Assembly: GCA_050175015.1 (NCBI GenBank)
Contig: JBFXJJ010000010.1
Span: forward strand, 9,987 to 73,986
From: Alphaproteobacteria bacterium
Lineage (GTDB): Bacteria; Pseudomonadota; Alphaproteobacteria; JBFXJJ01
Length of the DNA stretch: 64,000 nucleotides
Direction: 5' to 3'
Shown here piece after piece: positions 34,695 through 41,610 of this stretch; within the stretch, counting starts at the first letter, position 1, and each line of letters begins with the position of its first letter. Under the pieces are notes generated by a model, which saw only the letters and a program-made list of their open reading frames with translations, had not been told where the DNA came from and searched no databases. Made by a program: the position numbers and the translations under genes.

Positions 34695-35096
34695 CTATTT
34701 TTCATTATCAACAACGGCGACAGCTTCAAATTCCACTTTGATTTTAGGGTTAGGAAACGAGGTTTGTAAGGTGAATCTTGCGGGTTGGTTTTCTGGGTTA
34801 GGAAAATATTTTAAATAGATTTCATTCATAGCATCAAAGTCATTTAAGTCAGATAAGAAAATTCCAACTTTAATAATTTTATTAACGCAGCTTCCCGCTC
34901 TTTCCACAAACATTTTAACATTTTCCATAGCCTTTTCAGCTTGGGTGTAAATGTCGCCGTCAATAAACTCTCCCGTATGCCAATCAACTGATGGCTGGGT
35001 TGATATGAAAACGAGTTTTCCTTCTGAAGATACAAGGTTGTTATAGGGGGTTTTAGGTTCTTTTAAATCATCAAAATGATATACTTTTTTACTCAT
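34695..35096 (-). CDS. RidA/YjgF-family reactive-intermediate deaminase
   Basis: 133 aa. The pattern GKLVFISTQPSVD...GDIYTQAEKAMENVKMFVERAGS...VGIFLSDLNDFDAMNEIY is characteristic of YjgF/RidA. Confidence 0.8.
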   Translation of the reverse strand: MSKKVYHFDDLKEPKTPYNNLVSSEGKLVFISTQPSVDWHTGEFIDGDIYTQAEKAMENVKMFVERAGSCVNKIIKVGIFLSDLNDFDAMNEIYLKYFPNPENQPARFTLQTSFPNPKIKVEFEAVAVVDNEK

Positions 35097-35116
35097 AAAA
35101 TATTCCTGAACTTTTG

Positions 35117-35839
35117 CTATTTCAAAAAATCACCGACATATAAAAGATGTTCCCAAGGAAGGTCATCATTAGAAACTACGTCAAGAATGGTATCTAACGT
35201 TGCTTTTATAATATTTTCTCGGTCTTTAAAGCCTGCCGCAGAGACAATAGCAACAGGAGTGTCTCCTTCATAATGAAGTTTAAGCTCACTAACAACATTG
35301 GGTAAATCCATATTCATTGTAAACAAGATCATAGTCGATTTAGTTTGAGCTAATTTGGCAATTTTTCCTGTTTCAGTTTTAACCGCCTTAGTTAAAACTA
35401 TCGCCGCATCATAAGAGTTGCTTAACTCTTTTCCTAAGGCAGCACTTGCGGCATTAAAACTTGATATGCCAGGAATAATAACAGGATTTAAATCGGCAAA
35501 TTCTTTAAGGTATCCCGCTTGTGGACTGTAAATTGTTGGATCGCCAAAATCTAAAATAGCGACGGTTTTGCCAGCGAAAACAGCTTGTCTGATGATTTTT
35601 CTAATTTTATCTTCTTCTGTTAAAACTTCGGTTTCATCTTTTCCTCTGCGACCCATAGGCGTAAAAAGTCCGTGTCCCGCATCATAAACTTCTTTATTTG
35701 TTAGATAATCTTGGAACTGTTCTTTAACAAAATCCATAGCAAAAACAATATCAGCACTTTCTATAGTCTTAACAGCTTTAAGGGTAATATTATCAATATC
35801 ACCAATGCCTACGCTAACAAGGTATAAATTGGTTTCCAT
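35117..35839 (-). CDS. Tetrapyrrole-methylase-family protein (CbiF/CobM-like fold), isolated from any cobalamin cluster
   Basis: LYLVSVGIGDIDNITLKAVKTIESADIVF at the N-terminus, then ILDFGDPTIYSP and IIPGISSFNAASAALG, match the TP_methylase architecture. Confidence 0.5.
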   Translation of the reverse strand: METNLYLVSVGIGDIDNITLKAVKTIESADIVFAMDFVKEQFQDYLTNKEVYDAGHGLFTPMGRRGKDETEVLTEEDKIRKIIRQAVFAGKTVAILDFGDPTIYSPQAGYLKEFADLNPVIIPGISSFNAASAALGKELSNSYDAAIVLTKAVKTETGKIAKLAQTKSTMILFTMNMDLPNVVSELKLHYEGDTPVAIVSAAGFKDRENIIKATLDTILDVVSNDDLPWEHLLYVGDFLK

Positions 35840-35851
35840 TATTGTTGCTCC

Positions 35852-36865
35852 TTAAATTAAAATTATGCGGTTTAATATATCCGGCATTTCTAATTCCCAT
35901 TTAATATCTATAATTGATAATTGATTTTTATCAAGTTTTTGAAAGTTAGATGGGGATAAAATGCGTGGAATATAACTATTTTCATTTTTTTGTAAAACAC
36001 CTGTTCCTGTCCAAAATTTTGTAACCGAAGTTTTACTTGAGCCGATAGCCAAAGCTTCAGGAATAGAGCTGCAAAAGACTAAAATGCTGTCTTCTCCCAA
36101 AACAAAGTCTTGCCTTTTCTGGCAATCCTCAAAAGCATCGTGATATATGGCTCCATTATTCAAACATTCCAAGTAGTTAGCAGAAGATATTTTTGATAAA
36201 TCTTTAAGAGCAAGATTGCCATTTTTACAGAAGTTAAGCTCGGCTCTTTTTAACATTTTTTCTTTTTTTTCATCACTCCAGCTTAAAAACTTTTTTTTAT
36301 TATTTGCAAAAGTTATCGCAAGCTCGTCTTCAAGTTCGTTTTGCGATGAATATAAAGTTGCTAATCGTGTTAACTCTATTTTCAGATTATGCGGTAAATA
36401 TGGATTTAAGATTTTTAAAAGAAGATTAAAAGATGAACAGTATTGATTCATTGCATCTGGTTTGATGTTATTCATACGAGAAACCACGACATCATCAGAT
36501 GCAAAATAAAAGCATACGCCATAAGGGGCAAAATGAGCAATAGGTGCCAAAAAGTTAATGTAATGGCACAGCATAAATAATTCAGCAAAATCAACACTTG
36601 GAGCAGATGGCAGCCGCCATAATTTGTAGCCTCCAAATTCAAGCACAAATTTCAAAGGGGTTTTGTTTTCTAAGCTGTAATTTATTGCGGTTTTAATTCT
36701 GGTTACAGCACTTTCATCTAATGCCCATTTGCGAAAATCTTTTCTAGTTACAAGCTTGTAAAGTCTGGTTCTAATATCGCTAAAATTGGAGTATTTTTCT
36801 ATTGTTTGCAAAGAAATGGAGGCGCAATTTTGAATGTGATTGTTAAGAAAAGTAGAAACCGTCAT
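35852..36865 (-). CDS. Hypothetical protein (337 aa), no recognisable family
   Basis: ORF tightly packed in the operon, with a 4-nt overlap with the transketolase C-subunit gene. Confidence 0.45.
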   Translation of the reverse strand: MTVSTFLNNHIQNCASISLQTIEKYSNFSDIRTRLYKLVTRKDFRKWALDESAVTRIKTAINYSLENKTPLKFVLEFGGYKLWRLPSAPSVDFAELFMLCHYINFLAPIAHFAPYGVCFYFASDDVVVSRMNNIKPDAMNQYCSSFNLLLKILNPYLPHNLKIELTRLATLYSSQNELEDELAITFANNKKKFLSWSDEKKEKMLKRAELNFCKNGNLALKDLSKISSANYLECLNNGAIYHDAFEDCQKRQDFVLGEDSILVFCSSIPEALAIGSSKTSVTKFWTGTGVLQKNENSYIPRILSPSNFQKLDKNQLSIIDIKWELEMPDILNRIILI

Positions 36866-40386: not shown

Positions 40387-40695
40387 TTAAATATGTTCCT
40401 CATTTATGGGTAGTTTTGACAAGTGTTGAACAGGAGCATCATATTCTCTGACAAGTTCTTCTTTATCGAATTCAACGATTAAAACCTGCTTCAAATTTTT
40501 GATAGTTGTTTGGGCAAGAGTGGGTAGAAAATCAAGAAGAAGGCTTTCTTCTTCACTGCGGTATAAAACGGCGTGTTTTCCTCCAGCATAAAGCATTCGA
40601 GGCGAAGAGGGCGCCTTGTTTCTTGATTTTATACTAAAAAGCAACTCTCCTTCTGGATTTTGTAAAACTTCATAATTTTTTTCTTGAATAAGCAT
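40387..40695 (-). CDS. Hypothetical small protein (about 102 aa; start moved to the internal ATG at 40695)
   Basis: The longest ORF (to 40785) overlaps the upstream gene by 86 nt, whereas the ATG at 40695 lies 5 nt after that gene's stop. Confidence 0.4.
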   Translation of the reverse strand: MLIQEKNYEVLQNPEGELLFSIKSRNKAPSSPRMLYAGGKHAVLYRSEEESLLLDFLPTLAQTTIKNLKQVLIVEFDKEELVREYDAPVQHLSKLPINEEHI

Positions 40696-40699
40696 TTTT

Positions 40700-41110
40700 T
40701 TAATCCCAATGTTTTCCCTTAGATGCCGCAATATATTTAAAAGTTGCTTTTTCAACAGCGCTTTGATTTTTTTCAACCGTTTCAAGCCCCAGAATTGGAT
40801 CCTGTAAGCCCCCAGAAATTCCCGCAGCTTTTAAAAATTTATCAAAGGCTGCTGCCGTACTTTCGCCAAAAACTTTAGCTCCTTTAGGATTGGCTTCAAT
40901 CATAGCTTCGGCTTTGCCATTGATTATTTTTGCTGCATTTTCGGCGCCGCCATTCATTAATACATACTGTCCTCTAGCTTCTTTGTTCAAAAGACTACGG
41001 AAAAAGCCCGCACAGCCAGGGCATCTGTCAGCACAGCCGTGCGCCTTAGCCTTTTCTAAATTTTTCATAGAAGCTTTTTCGTTTCCGTGTTCATGATGTT
41101 GATGTTGCAT
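40700..41110 (-). CDS. Hypothetical His- and Cys-rich small protein (possible metal or redox site)
   Basis: N-terminus MQHQHHEHGNEK followed by HGCADRCPGCAG. 136 aa, otherwise Ala/Gly/Lys-rich. Confidence 0.45.
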   Translation of the reverse strand: MQHQHHEHGNEKASMKNLEKAKAHGCADRCPGCAGFFRSLLNKEARGQYVLMNGGAENAAKIINGKAEAMIEANPKGAKVFGESTAAAFDKFLKAAGISGGLQDPILGLETVEKNQSAVEKATFKYIAASKGKHWD

Positions 41111-41163
41111 CGTAAGTTTCTCCTAGTTTCTTATGTGATAGAAATGTTTTTTGTAAATAATTT

Positions 41164-41610
41164 TTAAGAAAGTTTAGATTTTAGCTGTTTAACCCAATCT
41201 TGAATTTCATTTTCAAAATCTTCGGGATCGCCATCTATTTTTAAACCTGATACGATGACGTTTCCTCCAAGATCTTTAGTCTTTTCTTCAATAGCATCAA
41301 CAGCACCGCAAAAATATTCAAAAGAAGAATCTCCGCAGCCAAAGGCTGCAACTTTTTTGCCGTTGATACCGATTAGGTTAAAGTCCTCAAAAAAATCACT
41401 GAAATCTTGTTGAAATTCAATATCATCTGCTCCCCAAGTTGAAGAGCCAAACAATAAAACGTCATAATTTTCAGCTAAATTTCGAGGTTTGGTTTCAGAA
41501 ACATTTTGCAACACAACATCATAATCTTTCGCCAAAAGGGCTTCAATTTTTTGCGAAACAGTTTCGGTATTTCCTGTTGTTGAGCCATAAACAATTAAAA
41601 TTTTAGTCAT
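41164..41610 (-). CDS. Short-chain flavodoxin (Desulfovibrio/Clostridium type)
   Basis: MTKILIVYGSTTGNTE is the FMN phosphate loop; AFGCGDSSFEYFCGAVDAIEEKTKDLGGNVIVSGLKIDGDP closely resembles Desulfovibrio vulgaris flavodoxin. Start set at the ATG at 41610 (GGGAG upstream) rather than the TTG at 41673 used by the ORF track. Confidence 0.85.
   Translation of the reverse strand: MTKILIVYGSTTGNTETVSQKIEALLAKDYDVVLQNVSETKPRNLAENYDVLLFGSSTWGADDIEFQQDFSDFFEDFNLIGINGKKVAAFGCGDSSFEYFCGAVDAIEEKTKDLGGNVIVSGLKIDGDPEDFENEIQDWVKQLKSKLS

What the first reader, a model, noticed from the sequence alone, without database searches (positions are those of the whole stretch)
34695..41610. Tightly packed 10-gene operon of unclear function (flavodoxin to RidA) with an orphan CbiF-like methylase, split transketolase and two unknown proteins
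Ten genes lie on the minus strand with gaps of 0-136 nt and three overlapping starts and stops. They are: a flavodoxin; a His/Cys-rich 136-aa protein; a 102-aa unknown; a class I methyltransferase; an alpha/beta hydrolase; transketolase N- and C-subunits; a 337-aa protein with no recognisable family; a tetrapyrrole-methylase-fold protein far from any cobalamin genes; and RidA. The combination does not match a known pathway. Split transketolase subunits are also used outside the pentose-phosphate pathway for C2 transfers onto unusual sugars or sulfosugars, and RidA is typically coupled to PLP-dependent amino-acid or aminosugar chemistry. A low-potential electron donor (flavodoxin) and a TP_methylase homolog in this context suggest an uncharacterised modification or catabolic pathway.
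Basis: inference. Interest (0 to 1): 0.65.

Follow-up and report, generated by a model that had tools for sequence, protein, structure and literature searches.

The report
Isonitrile-synthase-like cassette with split transketolase
The ten genes are real, but the conserved unit is a shorter cassette in which a very distant relative of isonitrile synthases is chained to a two-piece transketolase and a RidA imine deaminase, an uncharacterised arrangement found in gut and rumen Alphaproteobacteria.

Summary
All ten minus-strand ORFs exist at the stated coordinates. Three points of the description change.

1. The "337-aa protein with no family" is a deep-branching member of the isonitrile-synthase superfamily (PF05141: PvcA/IsnA/Dit1). 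A profile search, a pLDDT-93 model and Foldseek all point only to PIsnA and PvcA.
2. The 136-nt "gap" holds a conserved 47-aa ORF with an invariant Pro-Cys.
3. Comparative genomics does not support a ten-gene operon.

In 13 independent loci (43-61% GC) the colinear block is methyltransferase, esterase, TK-N, TK-C, Isn-like and RidA (RidA absent in one; the first gene cut off by the contig end in another). None of the 13 carries the flavodoxin, the 136-aa or 102-aa proteins, or the TP_methylase. Here the TP_methylase is a lineage-specific insertion between the Isn-like gene and RidA.

Five successive ATGA start/stop overlaps chain the methyltransferase through to the Isn-like gene. Distant family members sit beside MFS transporters, including a Rhizobium plasmid operon. 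In Patescibacteria the gene has no conserved neighbours.

Best reading (inferred): the transketolase supplies a ketose phosphate, the Isn-like enzyme condenses it with an amino-acid amine, and RidA, the methyltransferase and the esterase handle imines and tailoring. The product is unknown. This is a new variant of a known kind.

The parts
39630..40301 (-). MT1: class I SAM-dependent methyltransferase (223 aa). First gene of the conserved cassette.
   Evidence: It matches Methyltransf_23/31/11/12/25. Orthologues are 64-67% identical and colinear in nine of the ten gut/rumen alphaproteobacterial loci (L016 is cut by the contig end before this gene) and in L096, and 52-53% identical in L090 and L091. 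Homologues at 43-48% identity stand alone in Rhizobium wuzhouense and Enhydrobacter. The stop codon overlaps the next start as ATGA.
39490..39633 (-). Small conserved ORF of 47 aa with an invariant Pro-Cys, followed by a helix-like SAEyMEKL-type segment.
   Evidence: It fills the 'gap' exactly, with ATGA overlaps at both ends. ORFs of 39-57 aa sit at the same position in L001, L010-L014, L017, L018, L088 and L096. M1, P24, C25 and A29 are invariant. It is absent from the high-GC versions L090 and L091. It has no Pfam match.
38705..39493 (-). abH: alpha/beta hydrolase of the Abhydrolase_2 (carboxylesterase/thioesterase) type, 262 aa.
   Evidence: PF02230 matches at E 4e-17. PDB relatives are carboxylesterases and phospholipases. 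It carries a GYSQGG nucleophile-elbow motif in the sequence. It is colinear in all cassette loci, at 41-45% identity in the alphaproteobacterial loci and about 26% in L090 and L091.
37785..38708 (-). TKN: N-terminal (ThDP-binding) chain of a split transketolase. The likely start is the ATG at 38708; the ORF extends to a TTG at 38717.
   Evidence: PF00456 matches at E 1e-41. The match to the solved N-chain of the Carboxydothermus hydrogenoformans split transketolase (6yak) has E 6e-68, with the GHP, GSLGQG, DGE..QEG..WEA, D.NG and WHG motifs aligned. It has ATGA overlaps with abH and with TKC.
36862..37788 (-). TKC: C-terminal (pyrimidine-binding plus C-terminal domain) chain of the split transketolase, 308 aa.
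   Evidence: PF02779 and PF02780 both match. The match to 6yaj, the C-chain of the same solved split transketolase, has E 2.4e-69. Its stop overlaps the Isn337 start as ATGA.
35852..36865 (-). Isn337: deep-branching member of the isonitrile-synthase superfamily (PF05141: PvcA/IsnA/Dit1), 337 aa. Signature gene of the cassette.
   Evidence: - Pfam PF05141 matches the single sequence only faintly (15.9 bits against a 26.4 cutoff), but 30 of 35 family members hit it, best E 3.7e-8.
- The family profile finds PIsnA (9dh4, E 5.5e-5) and PvcA (3e59, E 0.0019) in the PDB.
- The AF2 model has pLDDT 93.1 and pTM 0.91. The Foldseek top 8 are all PIsnA/PvcA chains (E 4e-8 to 2e-5, TM 0.54-0.65, 14-15% identity); the next hits are TyrRS at E above 4e-3.
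- K81, D92, E95, S123, D124 and Y142, all invariant or nearly so in the family, align with identical residues of PIsnA.
- Cassette-linked members form one clade.
35117..35839 (-). TP_methylase-fold protein, CbiF/CobM-like orphan, 240 aa. A lineage-specific insertion between Isn337 and RidA.
   Evidence: PF00590 matches at E 1.7e-40. It falls below every NCBIfam equivalog cutoff. Its best PDB hits are CbiF/CobM at E 1e-14. It is absent from all 13 other cassette loci, and in 12 of them RidA follows Isn directly. Its own homologues (43-57% identity) occur in Desulfovibrio, Vibrio, Thauera and Advenella in unrelated contexts. It has its own AAGGAG ribosome-binding site, 12 nt after the Isn337 stop.
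34695..35096 (-). RidA-subfamily protein, 133 aa. Last gene of the cassette.
   Evidence: PF01042 matches at E 3e-25. TIGR00004 scores 87.5 bits, below its 106 cutoff. It aligns end to end with solved RidA/YjgF proteins and keeps the Pro-Ala-Arg arginine and the C-terminal Glu. It directly follows, or overlaps, the Isn-like gene in 12 of 13 related loci; L096 lacks it.
41164..41610 (-). Short-chain flavodoxin, 148 aa. An upstream neighbour, not part of the conserved cassette.
   Evidence: TIGR01753 scores 146 bits against a cutoff of 123. No homologue lies within 10 kb of any related cassette. It is preceded by about 680 nt without a credible gene and by a TTGACA-18-AATTAT site at 41735-41706.
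40700..41110 (-). p136: His/Cys-rich 136-aa protein (MQHQHHEH..., CADRCPGC). Function unknown; not part of the conserved cassette.
   Evidence: It has no Pfam or NCBIfam match even at E 10. A metagenome scan found no relative. It is absent from related loci. It has a good ribosome-binding site (AGGAGA) upstream.
40387..40695 (-). p102: 102-aa ORF of unknown function (a TTG-extended version would be 132 aa). Not part of the conserved cassette.
   Evidence: It has no family match and is absent from related loci. An 85-nt AT-rich spacer separates it from MT1.

Best explanation
**What is shown.** The functional unit is not the ten-gene run. It is a conserved cassette: MT1 - small Cys peptide - esterase - TK-N - TK-C - Isn-like - RidA. 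In this genome an orphan TP_methylase has been inserted before RidA. The flavodoxin, p136 and p102 are unrelated upstream neighbours. The signature enzyme is a very divergent homologue of isonitrile synthases. The transketolase and RidA look canonical at their diagnostic motifs.

**Proposed mechanism (inferred, not shown).** Characterised isonitrile synthases condense the amino nitrogen of L-Tyr or L-Trp with a carbon of ribulose 5-phosphate. By analogy:
1. The translationally coupled split transketolase makes the 2-ketose phosphate donor (xylulose-5-P or a related ketose) on site.
2. The Isn-like enzyme forms an imine between that ketose and the amine of an amino acid. It then converts the adduct into an N-functionalised product, an isonitrile or its hydrated N-formyl form.
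3. RidA hydrolyses stray 2-imino or enamine by-products.
4. The class I methyltransferase and the Abhydrolase_2 esterase add and remove a methyl ester, or otherwise tailor the product.

The product, its amine substrate and its role are unknown. A metal-binding or antagonistic small molecule is one possibility.
For: **Cassette conservation.**
- The block is colinear in 10 species-level gut/rumen alphaproteobacterial MAG loci (gene calls for the same species).
- It is also present in L090 (61% GC) and L091 (55% GC, with a gammaproteobacterial-type rsmI/lpoA/yraN/BON context).
- It is present in the closest relative, L096.
- None of these loci has the flavodoxin, p136, p102 or the TP_methylase.
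- Five consecutive ATGA overlaps run from MT1 to Isn337 in the window. TKC/Isn and Isn/RidA overlaps recur in the other loci.

**Family assignment of Isn337.** Searches support it. Cassette-linked members are monophyletic.

**Canonical chemistry of the superfamily.** Isonitrile formation joins the nitrogen of L-Trp or L-Tyr to a carbon from ribulose 5-phosphate (abstract of PMC7949033).

**Transketolase and RidA.** Both TK chains match the solved split transketolase at E 1e-68 to 1e-69 with motifs intact. RidA keeps the diagnostic Arg.

**Hints that the wider family makes an exported small molecule.**
- R. leguminosarum plasmids carry the operon diaminobutyrate aminotransferase - class I MTase - MetK - MFS - family member. 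The last gene matches the family profile at hhalign probability 99.7, E 3e-26.
- One locus has MFS - SDR - SDR::Isn fusion.
- In three related Patescibacteria loci the gene is followed by proteins that read by eye as MFS-type transporters.

**Imine-related partners elsewhere.** One Patescibacteria lineage has DAO and Ldh_2 genes directly downstream.
Against: - No biochemical evidence exists for any member of this clade.
- Identity to characterised isonitrile synthases is only 14-15%. The window protein scores below the Pfam gathering threshold.
- The usual partner, a PvcB/IsnB-type Fe/2-oxoglutarate oxygenase, is absent from the 59 ORFs of at least 110 aa in the window; 54 were scanned against Pfam and the other five lie beyond 56 kb or inside longer genes.
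- Dit1, a member of the same Pfam family, is reported not to be an isocyanide synthase (PMC7345447). The chemistry of distant members is therefore not fixed.
- Transketolase makes xylulose-5-P, not ribulose-5-P, and no epimerase is encoded in the cassette.
- The TK may simply be the cell's housekeeping enzyme. MT1 homologues stand alone in other Alphaproteobacteria.
- In one genome an MT1 homologue plus an unrelated hydrolase lie beside the full-length housekeeping tkt, gap and fba genes. This fits a central-metabolism association.
- In about 70 Patescibacteria loci the gene has no conserved partner at all.
- RidA is missing from the closest relative's cassette.
Confidence: 0.4

Rival explanations
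1. Housekeeping synteny or metabolite-damage control. The split transketolase is the organism's ordinary pentose-phosphate enzyme. MT1, the esterase, the Isn-like protein and RidA are accessory or repair proteins that travel with it. For example, they could deal with adducts between amines and reactive ketose phosphates. On this reading no dedicated natural product is made.
For: - The TK chains look fully canonical and RidA is of the archetypal type.
- MT1 homologues at 43-48% identity are stand-alone genes in housekeeping neighbourhoods of Rhizobium and Enhydrobacter.
- In L097 an MT1 homologue plus a hydrolase lie between gap and the full-length tkt.
- The flanks of cassette loci are housekeeping genes: dnaX-ybaB-recR, gltX-cysS, rpsD.
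- The Isn-like gene sits among unrelated housekeeping genes in Patescibacteria.
- No second TK lies in the 64-kb window.
Against: - The same six genes stay colinear and translationally coupled across hosts of 33-61% GC, including a gammaproteobacterial-type context. From general knowledge, single-chain TktA is the norm in that group.
- The closest relative has a second split TK pair, so TK pairs are used for special purposes in this lineage.
- More distant family members lie in operons with MFS transporters and biosynthetic enzymes.
- The family is sporadic, with 91 hits among 185,579 species genomes. That fits an accessory trait rather than a core repair function.
Confidence: 0.27
2. The Isn-like enzyme does different amine-carbonyl chemistry from isonitrile or N-formyl formation. 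Examples would be making or cleaving an N-alkyl (opine- or Amadori-type) amino acid, or a PLP-independent amino transfer to a ketose. RidA or other imine-handling enzymes would finish the reaction.
For: - Divergence from characterised members is extreme, and Dit1 shows the family is not mono-functional.
- No IsnB/PvcB partner is present.
- Partners elsewhere are imine or amine oxidoreductases and dehydrogenases: DAO plus Ldh_2, and an SDR fusion plus a second SDR.
- Further partners are RidA here and a diaminobutyrate aminotransferase in Rhizobium.
Against: The only residues that can be aligned with PIsnA are identical at six family-invariant positions. That argues for a shared catalytic core. 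No positive evidence supports any specific alternative reaction.
Confidence: 0.2
3. All ten genes, from the flavodoxin to RidA, form one pathway in which a low-potential electron donor and the TP_methylase are integral.
For: All ten genes are on the same strand with short spacers. No clear terminator or promoter was detected between p102 and MT1. The TP_methylase is embedded in the cassette with its own ribosome-binding site, so it is very probably co-transcribed here.
Against: - The flavodoxin, p136, p102 and the TP_methylase are absent from all 13 related cassette loci.
- The upstream genes differ from locus to locus: ECF sigma with anti-sigma, CsoR/DtxR-type regulators, or dnaX-recR.
- TP_methylase homologues occur in unrelated contexts.
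- p136 has no detectable relatives.
Confidence: 0.06
4. A peptide-based pathway. The conserved 39-57-aa ORF with the invariant Pro-Cys would be a precursor or scaffold peptide. Its cysteine, or its N-terminus, would be modified or loaded by the neighbouring enzymes and released by the Abhydrolase_2-type (thio)esterase.
For: The small ORF is conserved in position, coupled by ATGA overlaps on both sides, and has an invariant PC motif. From general knowledge, the Abhydrolase_2 family includes acyl-protein thioesterases.
Against: The small ORF is missing from the L090 and L091 versions of the cassette, so it is not essential to the core. No recognisable RiPP maturase, carrier-protein or E2-like acyltransferase gene is present. 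The peptide is highly charged and poorly conserved outside one short segment.
Confidence: 0.05

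Closest known systems
Isonitrile synthases IsnA / PvcA / AmbI1-2 (Pfam PF05141; structures 3e59 PvcA, 9dh4/9dhm PIsnA)
   Same: They share the overall fold; they are the only significant Foldseek hits, with TM 0.54-0.65. 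A profile-level sequence match covers the core. The aligned motifs share identical Lys, Asp..Glu, Ser-Asp and Tyr residues (FPTKS/GGYKLWR, PDMAE/VDWAE, CSDG/ASDD). The expected substrates, an amine plus a ketose phosphate, fit the adjacent transketolase.
   Different: Identity is 14-15%, and the window protein scores below the Pfam gathering score. The family motif FGGYKLWR is distinct. No IsnB/PvcB oxygenase, glycosyltransferase or hydroxylase partner is present. The clade is dominated by Patescibacteria and gut Alphaproteobacteria rather than Pseudomonas, Xenorhabdus, cyanobacteria or fungi. Coupling to TK and RidA was not found in the literature searched.
Yeast Dit1 (same Pfam family)
   Same: It is a PF05141 protein acting on an amino acid. 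Its product is most likely N-formyl tyrosine rather than an isonitrile (PMC7345447). This shows that distant family members may stop at, or divert to, a different N-C1 product.
   Different: Dit1 is eukaryotic, works with the P450 Dit2 and is specific to the spore wall. No similarity beyond the family level was tested here.
Split-chain transketolase of Carboxydothermus hydrogenoformans (6yak/6yaj)
   Same: It has the same two-chain architecture. Both chains match at E 6e-68 and 2e-69, with the ThDP and substrate motifs aligned.
   Different: Here the two chains are embedded by ATGA overlaps between an esterase and an Isn-like gene. Whether this pair serves the pentose-phosphate pathway or only the cassette is unknown.
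RidA/YjgF/TdcF 2-iminoacid deaminases
   Same: It aligns over its full length with solved RidA proteins and keeps the carboxylate-binding Arg (PAR motif).
   Different: It scores below the TIGR00004 cutoff (87.5 against 106 bits). In related loci it is translationally coupled to an Isn-like gene rather than to a PLP enzyme.
CbiF/CobM precorrin-4 C11-methyltransferases (TP_methylase fold)
   Same: This is the best-matching characterised family for the 240-aa protein: TIGR01465 at E 1e-30, PDB 4e16/1cbf/2cbf at E 1e-14 to 4e-12. The GxGxGD and GDP motifs are visible in the sequence.
   Different: It scores far below the equivalog cutoff (106 against 260 bits). No cobalamin or siroheme gene lies in the 64 kb. 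It belongs to a separate, widespread orphan clade. At least 63 of its 120 listed homologues carry an N-terminal hydrophobic, signal-peptide-like extension, which would be unexpected for a SAM-dependent enzyme. The window copy lacks that extension.
BioC/BioH-type methyl-ester 'mask and unmask' pair (recalled analogy only)
   Same: A class I methyltransferase (best NCBIfam hit BioC, E 3e-8) sits next to an alpha/beta-hydrolase esterase (faint BioH hit, E 0.002).
   Different: Both scores are far below the cutoffs (34 against 185 bits; 18 against 207 bits). No fatty-acid or biotin genes are present. This is a lead for the tailoring logic, not a membership claim.

Membership tests
Isonitrile synthase superfamily (PF05141, DIT1_PvcA) | Sequence match to the Pfam model at its gathering score | tested here: not met
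   The window protein scores 15.9 bits (E 0.0094) against a cutoff of 26.4. However, 30 of 35 aligned family members hit PF05141 at E of 0.01 or better, best 3.7e-8. The family profile finds PIsnA at E 5.5e-5 and PvcA at E 0.0019 in the PDB.
Isonitrile synthase superfamily (PF05141, DIT1_PvcA) | Same three-dimensional fold as PvcA/PIsnA | tested here: met
   The AF2 model has pLDDT 93.1 and pTM 0.91. The eight Foldseek hits with E of 0.001 or better are all PIsnA or PvcA chains (probability 1.00, TM 0.54-0.65). The next hits are TyrRS at E above 4e-3.
Isonitrile synthase superfamily (PF05141, DIT1_PvcA) | Conservation of core motif residues shared with characterised enzymes | tested here: inconclusive
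   In the roughly 100-residue stretch that aligns, K81, D92, E95, S123, D124 and Y142 match identical PIsnA residues and are invariant or nearly invariant in the family. The catalytic and ligand-contacting residues of PIsnA could not be looked up: the structure paper is not held, and no coordinates were available for superposition.
Isonitrile synthase superfamily (PF05141, DIT1_PvcA) | Converts the amine of L-Tyr or L-Trp plus ribulose-5-phosphate into an isonitrile | not testable with these tools
   This needs an enzyme assay. The canonical reaction is as stated in PMC7949033.
Isonitrile synthase superfamily (PF05141, DIT1_PvcA) | Adjacent IsnB/PvcB-type Fe(II)/2-oxoglutarate oxygenase, typical of bacterial isn/pvc/amb clusters (recalled) | tested here: not met
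   No TauD-type or other 2OG-oxygenase domain appears in the cassette or in any of the 54 window ORFs scanned (of 59 of at least 110 aa). None appears in the gene calls of related loci.
Transketolase (split-chain type) | Separate N chain (ThDP-binding) and C chain (pyrimidine-binding plus C-terminal domain) with conserved cofactor and substrate motifs | tested here: met
   PF00456 matches one ORF; PF02779 and PF02780 match the next. The matches to 6yak and 6yaj have E 6e-68 and 2e-69, with motifs aligned.
Transketolase (split-chain type) | A dedicated rather than housekeeping role, that is, another TK in the genome | not testable with these tools
   Only 64 kb of the genome is available and it holds no second TK. 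The closest relative has a second split pair 3 kb from its cassette.
RidA subfamily of the YjgF/YER057c/UK114 family | Conserved active-site Arg that binds the 2-iminoacid carboxylate | tested here: met
   The PAR motif aligns with the PAR of PH0854 and other solved RidA proteins.
RidA subfamily of the YjgF/YER057c/UK114 family | NCBIfam TIGR00004 score above cutoff | tested here: not met
   It scores 87.5 bits against a cutoff of 106.25.
CbiF/CobM precorrin-4 methyltransferase | Equivalog-level score and a cobalamin-pathway context | tested here: not met
   TIGR01465 scores 106.4 bits against a cutoff of 259.65. No cobalamin gene lies in the window. Homologues sit in unrelated contexts.
RsmI (16S rRNA 2'-O-methyltransferase, TP_methylase fold) | RsmI-type sequence with an RsmI_C domain | tested here: not met
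   Only PF00590 is found and no RsmI_C. The RsmI-like structure 3kwp matches at E 2e-6, against 1e-14 for CbiF. A true RsmI with PF23016 is seen in L091 for comparison.
Short-chain flavodoxin | TIGR01753 above cutoff | tested here: met
   It scores 146.3 bits against a cutoff of 123.
   Only six of the ten recur: MT1, abH, TKN, TKC, Isn and RidA. The flavodoxin, p136, p102 and TP_methylase are found in 0 of 13 related loci.
   Consensus scans show no clear terminator or promoter between p102 and MT1. There is no riboswitch.

The most novel reading that the evidence does not exclude
The cassette-linked clade, together with the roughly 500-cluster family that reaches into Patescibacteria and Rhizobium plasmids, is a new functional branch of the isonitrile-synthase superfamily. 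It would make a so-far undescribed N-functionalised (isonitrile, N-formyl or N-alkyl) amino-acid metabolite from a ketose phosphate supplied by its own transketolase. That would give gut and rumen Alphaproteobacteria, and some ultra-small Patescibacteria, an unsuspected small-molecule capability, for example metal binding or antagonism.
Probability: 0.3. Interest if true: 0.75.

Novelty: new variant of a known kind. Interest (0 to 1): 0.55.

Why it matters
Isonitrile natural products are potent metal binders and enzyme inhibitors. Their known synthases come from a narrow set of organisms and always work with an oxygenase partner. Three things would follow if the proposed reading holds.

1. A deep-branching clade hard-wired to a transketolase and RidA would extend the chemistry and the taxonomic range of the superfamily. 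The clade occurs in uncultured gut and rumen Alphaproteobacteria, on Rhizobium plasmids and, as a lone gene, in many Patescibacteria. Patescibacteria are otherwise regarded as almost devoid of biosynthetic capacity.

2. It would be a clean case of a central-metabolism enzyme (TK) recruited as the on-site supplier of a co-substrate.

3. The finding is directly testable. The cassette is about 4.5 kb, compact and translationally coupled. A cultured carrier of a family member also exists: R. leguminosarum CC283b, plasmid pCC283b_4.

Even on the ordinary reading, the re-annotation is useful. It covers the 337-aa protein, the overlooked 47-aa ORF and the reduction of the operon from ten genes to the conserved core.

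Tried and rejected
- **Ten-gene unit.** tblastn of all ten proteins against 89 loci and against L090, L091 and L096 showed that only six recur.
- **Conserved partners in Patescibacteria.** I clustered 1,025 neighbouring ORFs from 82 loci. The recurrent neighbours read by eye as housekeeping genes (guaB, mnmA, rarA, CCA-adding enzyme, rluD, rplS) or transporters restricted to closely related genomes. No general partner exists.
- **TP_methylase context.** Two homologue neighbourhoods, in Vibrio quintilis and Desulfovibrio, share nothing with each other or with the cassette. I dropped the idea that the methylase defines the pathway.
- **MT1 as a guide to function.** Its wider family is stand-alone in Rhizobium and Enhydrobacter. 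PDB relatives (Rickettsia PKMT1, Hen1, a sterol MTase) are too distant to indicate a substrate.
- **p136 and p102.** They have no Pfam or NCBIfam match even at E 10. A metagenome scan for p136 found nothing.
- **Riboswitch or other RNA element.** None was found at E of 1 or better in 34300-42400.
- **Promoter and terminator scans.** Promoter-like sites were at background level (33 against 29 expected). The terminator-like sites lie inside genes. The scans are not informative for operon limits.
- **Literature.** The PIsnA structure paper and the PvcA structure paper (PMC2701257) are not held. The catalytic residues of characterised enzymes could therefore not be checked against the model. No paper linked PF05141 or isocyanide with transketolase, and the ten best-ranked papers of a combined search with Patescibacteria named no such synthase.
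- **Link to the Rhizobium operon through the methyltransferase.** The MTase there is not an orthologue of MT1; only the SAM motif matches, at E 0.002.

Full report
**Observation**

The region 34695-41673 carries ten consecutive minus-strand ORFs.
- short-chain flavodoxin (TIGR01753, above cutoff)
- class I methyltransferase (MT1)
- Abhydrolase_2 esterase (abH)
- transketolase N chain (TKN)
- transketolase C chain (TKC)
- TP_methylase-fold protein
- RidA-family protein
- two ORFs of 136 and 102 aa with no family match, even at E 10

The spacings are as reported. The junction sequences add two details. First, the overlaps are all ATGA start/stop overlaps. Second, the 136-nt "gap" between MT1 and abH is filled exactly by a 47-aa ORF (39490-39633) with ATGA overlaps at both ends. 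Five successive ATGA junctions therefore chain MT1, the small ORF, abH, TKN, TKC and the 337-aa gene. TKN most likely starts at the ATG at 38708.

**The 337-aa protein**

It is not family-less.
- A single-sequence Pfam scan gives a faint PF05141 (DIT1_PvcA) hit.
- Its 73 database relatives include proteins pre-annotated with PF05141. One is named by NCBI as an L-tyrosine/L-tryptophan isonitrile synthase family protein.
- Of 35 aligned members, 30 hit PF05141, best E 3.7e-8.
- The family profile finds the isonitrile synthases PIsnA (9dh4/9dhm, E 5.5e-5) and PvcA (3e59, E 0.0019) in the PDB.
- An AlphaFold model is confident: pLDDT 93.1, pTM 0.91.
- All eight significant Foldseek PDB hits are PIsnA or PvcA chains (TM 0.54-0.65, 14-15% identity). 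Tyrosyl-tRNA synthetases follow far behind.
- In the stretch that aligns, K81, D92, E95, S123, D124 and Y142 coincide with identical PIsnA residues. All six are invariant or nearly invariant in the family.

An exhaustive profile search finds 515 clusters (at 50% identity) with E of 0.001 or better among 1.84 billion representatives. The family is small and sporadic.

**Which genes belong together**

*Source organism.* The window comes from an Alphaproteobacteria MAG: P0001 is 100% identical to the window protein. Window GC is 33%.

*Genome scan.* A scan of 185,579 species genomes returned 91 relatives.
- Ten are gut or rumen Alphaproteobacteria MAGs, such as Acetobacter sp. CAG:977, UMGS1296 and RGIG5000, at 53-57% identity.
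- About seventy are Patescibacteria and a few other MAGs, at 29-41% identity.

*Co-occurrence.* I ran tblastn with all ten window proteins.
- Every alphaproteobacterial locus carries MT1-abH-TKN-TKC-Isn-RidA in the same order (one is cut by a contig end).
- None carries the flavodoxin, p136, p102 or the TP_methylase.

*More distant carriers.* The same six-gene block occurs in a 61%-GC contig (L090) and in a 55%-GC contig (L091) whose flanks (rsmI, lpoA, yraN, BON) look gammaproteobacterial.

*Closest relative.* L096 (59% identity) has the block without RidA. It also has divergent CsoR-type and DtxR-type regulators upstream, and a second split transketolase pair 3 kb away inside a sugar-nucleotide/glycosyltransferase cluster.

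*Phylogeny and the small ORF.*
- In a neighbour-joining tree the cassette-linked proteins form one clade, and the window is sister to the gut group.
- The small ORF has orthologues of 39-57 aa with an invariant Pro-Cys in all the low- to mid-GC alphaproteobacterial loci that hold the MT1-abH junction.
- It has none in L090 or L091.

*Patescibacteria.* The gene has no conserved neighbour there.

*The TP_methylase insertion.*
- In 12 of the 13 other loci RidA directly follows or overlaps the Isn-like gene (L096 has no RidA). In the window the TP_methylase sits between them, with 12- and 20-nt spacers and its own AAGGAG site.
- The TP_methylase is therefore a lineage-specific insertion, probably co-transcribed here but not part of the conserved system.
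- Its homologues (43-57% identity, in Desulfovibrio, Vibrio, Thauera and Advenella) lie in unrelated contexts.
- It is CbiF/CobM-like but far below equivalog cutoffs, and it is not RsmI.

**The other parts**

- **Transketolase.** Both chains match the solved split transketolase of Carboxydothermus hydrogenoformans at E 6e-68 and 2e-69, with the cofactor and substrate motifs aligned. It is a genuine transketolase.
- **RidA.** It keeps the diagnostic Arg.
- **Esterase.** abH resembles carboxylesterases.
- **MT1.** Its solved relatives are only distant. Its wider family includes stand-alone genes in Rhizobium and Enhydrobacter.
- **Rest of the window.** Elsewhere the window holds a surface-polysaccharide locus, gltB, an NfnAB/GltD-like pair, manB/manC and housekeeping genes. 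The 54 ORFs scanned include no 2-oxoglutarate oxygenase, cobalamin gene or other pentose-phosphate gene.
- **RNA.** No Rfam element lies in the region.

**Mechanism**

Characterised isonitrile synthases join the amino nitrogen of L-Tyr or L-Trp to a carbon of ribulose 5-phosphate (PMC7949033). The tight and conserved coupling of a ketose-phosphate-producing enzyme (TK), an Isn-like enzyme and an imine deaminase suggests the following sequence.
1. The transketolase supplies the ketose phosphate.
2. The Isn-like enzyme condenses it with an amino-acid amine and converts the adduct to an N-functionalised product, an isonitrile or an N-formyl group.
3. RidA removes reactive imines.
4. MT1 and the esterase tailor the product.

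Independent hints point to a biosynthetic, exported product:
- A family member ends an operon on R. leguminosarum plasmids: diaminobutyrate aminotransferase - class I methyltransferase - MetK - MFS transporter - family member. It matches the family profile at hhalign probability 99.7.
- One locus has MFS - SDR - SDR::Isn fusion.
- Three related Patescibacteria loci have MFS-like genes directly downstream.

All steps of this mechanism are inferred; none is shown.

**Counter-evidence and rivals**

- The enzyme is extremely divergent.
- Dit1, in the same Pfam family, is reported not to be an isocyanide synthase (PMC7345447).
- No IsnB/PvcB partner exists.
- Transketolase makes xylulose-5-P, not ribulose-5-P.
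- The TK may be the housekeeping enzyme of these small genomes. In one alphaproteobacterium an MT1 homologue plus an unrelated hydrolase lie between gap and the full-length tkt.

I therefore give the biosynthetic model 0.4, a housekeeping or damage-control reading about 0.27, a different amine-carbonyl chemistry about 0.2, the original ten-gene pathway about 0.06, and a peptide-based pathway about 0.05.

**Novelty**

The components belong to known families. The clade, its motif set (FGGYKLWR and others), its distribution and its hard-wired association with TK and RidA were not found in the literature searched. I rate it a new variant of a known kind, of moderate to good interest. Its main value is that it is compact and directly testable.

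Noticed in passing
window 39490-39633 (-): A conserved 47-aa ORF with an invariant Pro-Cys and a SAEyMEKL-like segment fills the supposed intergenic gap between the methyltransferase and the esterase. It has ATGA overlaps on both sides. Orthologues of 39-57 aa sit in all low- to mid-GC alphaproteobacterial cassettes that hold the MT1-abH junction, but not in the two high-GC ones.
   Followed up: yes
window 35117-35839 (-) and homologues P0075-P0193: At least 63 of the 120 listed homologues (43-57% identical) of the orphan TP_methylase carry an N-terminal hydrophobic, signal-peptide-like extension. Examples are P0107 and P0080, which have Ala-x-Ala-type sites. One gene lies directly after a TonB-dependent receptor gene in Desulfovibrio. 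An exported 'SAM-dependent methylase' fold is odd and suggests a binding or non-SAM role for this clade. The window copy has no extension.
   Followed up: partly
L096 11259-12943 and 3640-4956 (closest relative of the window cassette): A second split transketolase pair (34-37% identical to the cassette pair) sits inside a nucleotidyltransferase/epimerase/GT2 sugar cluster 3 kb from the cassette. A CsoR-type and a DtxR-type metal regulator are divergently placed just upstream of the cassette.
   Followed up: partly
L098 4565-9918 (Rhizobium leguminosarum CC283b plasmid pCC283b_4); L099 5637-7890: A cultured organism carries a distant family member (24% identity; hhalign probability 99.7 to the family profile). 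It is the last gene of the operon diaminobutyrate-2-oxoglutarate transaminase - class I MTase - metK - MFS transporter - family member. A second plasmid (strain Vaf10) keeps MFS plus a gene annotated as two adjacent CDSs, only the first of which matches, which looks like a split or frameshifted copy.
   Followed up: partly
L095 5115-7782: A fusion protein (P0436, 593 aa) joins a short-chain dehydrogenase domain to the Isn-like domain. It is preceded by another SDR and an MFS transporter.
   Followed up: partly
L005-L007 (Patescibacteria) 10001-13648: In one Patescibacteria lineage the Isn-like gene is followed by Ldh_2-family dehydrogenase, DAO-family FAD oxidoreductase and GDSL lipase genes. 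It sits next to a serine recombinase, which suggests a small mobile module with imine/amine redox enzymes.
   Followed up: no
L097 5270-11657: An MT1 homologue (48% identity) is followed 4 nt later by an unrelated Abhydrolase_1 hydrolase. The pair lies between gap and a full-length housekeeping transketolase, with fba nearby. This could be coincidence or an older link between this methyltransferase family and transketolase.
   Followed up: partly
window 41611-42289: About 680 nt upstream of the flavodoxin hold no credible ORF (only ORFs of 47 aa or fewer) and no Rfam match. The stretch contains the best promoter-like sites of the region. It is unusually long for this compact genome.
   Followed up: partly
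window 40700-41110 (-): The His/Cys-rich 136-aa protein (N-terminal MQHQHHEH, then CADRCPGC) has no detectable relatives in Pfam, NCBIfam or a metagenome scan. Other cassette loci instead have an ECF sigma/anti-sigma pair plus a His-rich, apparently exported protein upstream (read by eye). This may be a recurring metal-related neighbourhood.
   Followed up: partly
window 863-6399 (-): Four consecutive ORFs (148, 153, 205 and 919 aa) have no Pfam match. They are followed by a DUF6782 putative metallopeptidase, in the lowest-GC part of the window (27-30%).
   Followed up: no
window 12900-34478: A large low-GC surface-polysaccharide locus holds GDP-mannose dehydratase and an epimerase, an ABC exporter, several methyltransferases, five GT1/GT4-family glycosyltransferases and a GNT-I-like one, a PGA_cap protein and a TupA-like ATP-grasp. 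An MBOAT gene plus a 315-aa family-less partner lie convergent with RidA.
   Followed up: no
window 42290-44546 (-): An NfnAB/sulfide-dehydrogenase-like pair (GltD-like Fer4_20 + Pyr_redox_2, and a PyrK-like FAD/NAD + FeS subunit) lies directly upstream of the flavodoxin region. Together with the flavodoxin it points to an anaerobic redox lifestyle rather than to the cassette.
   Followed up: no
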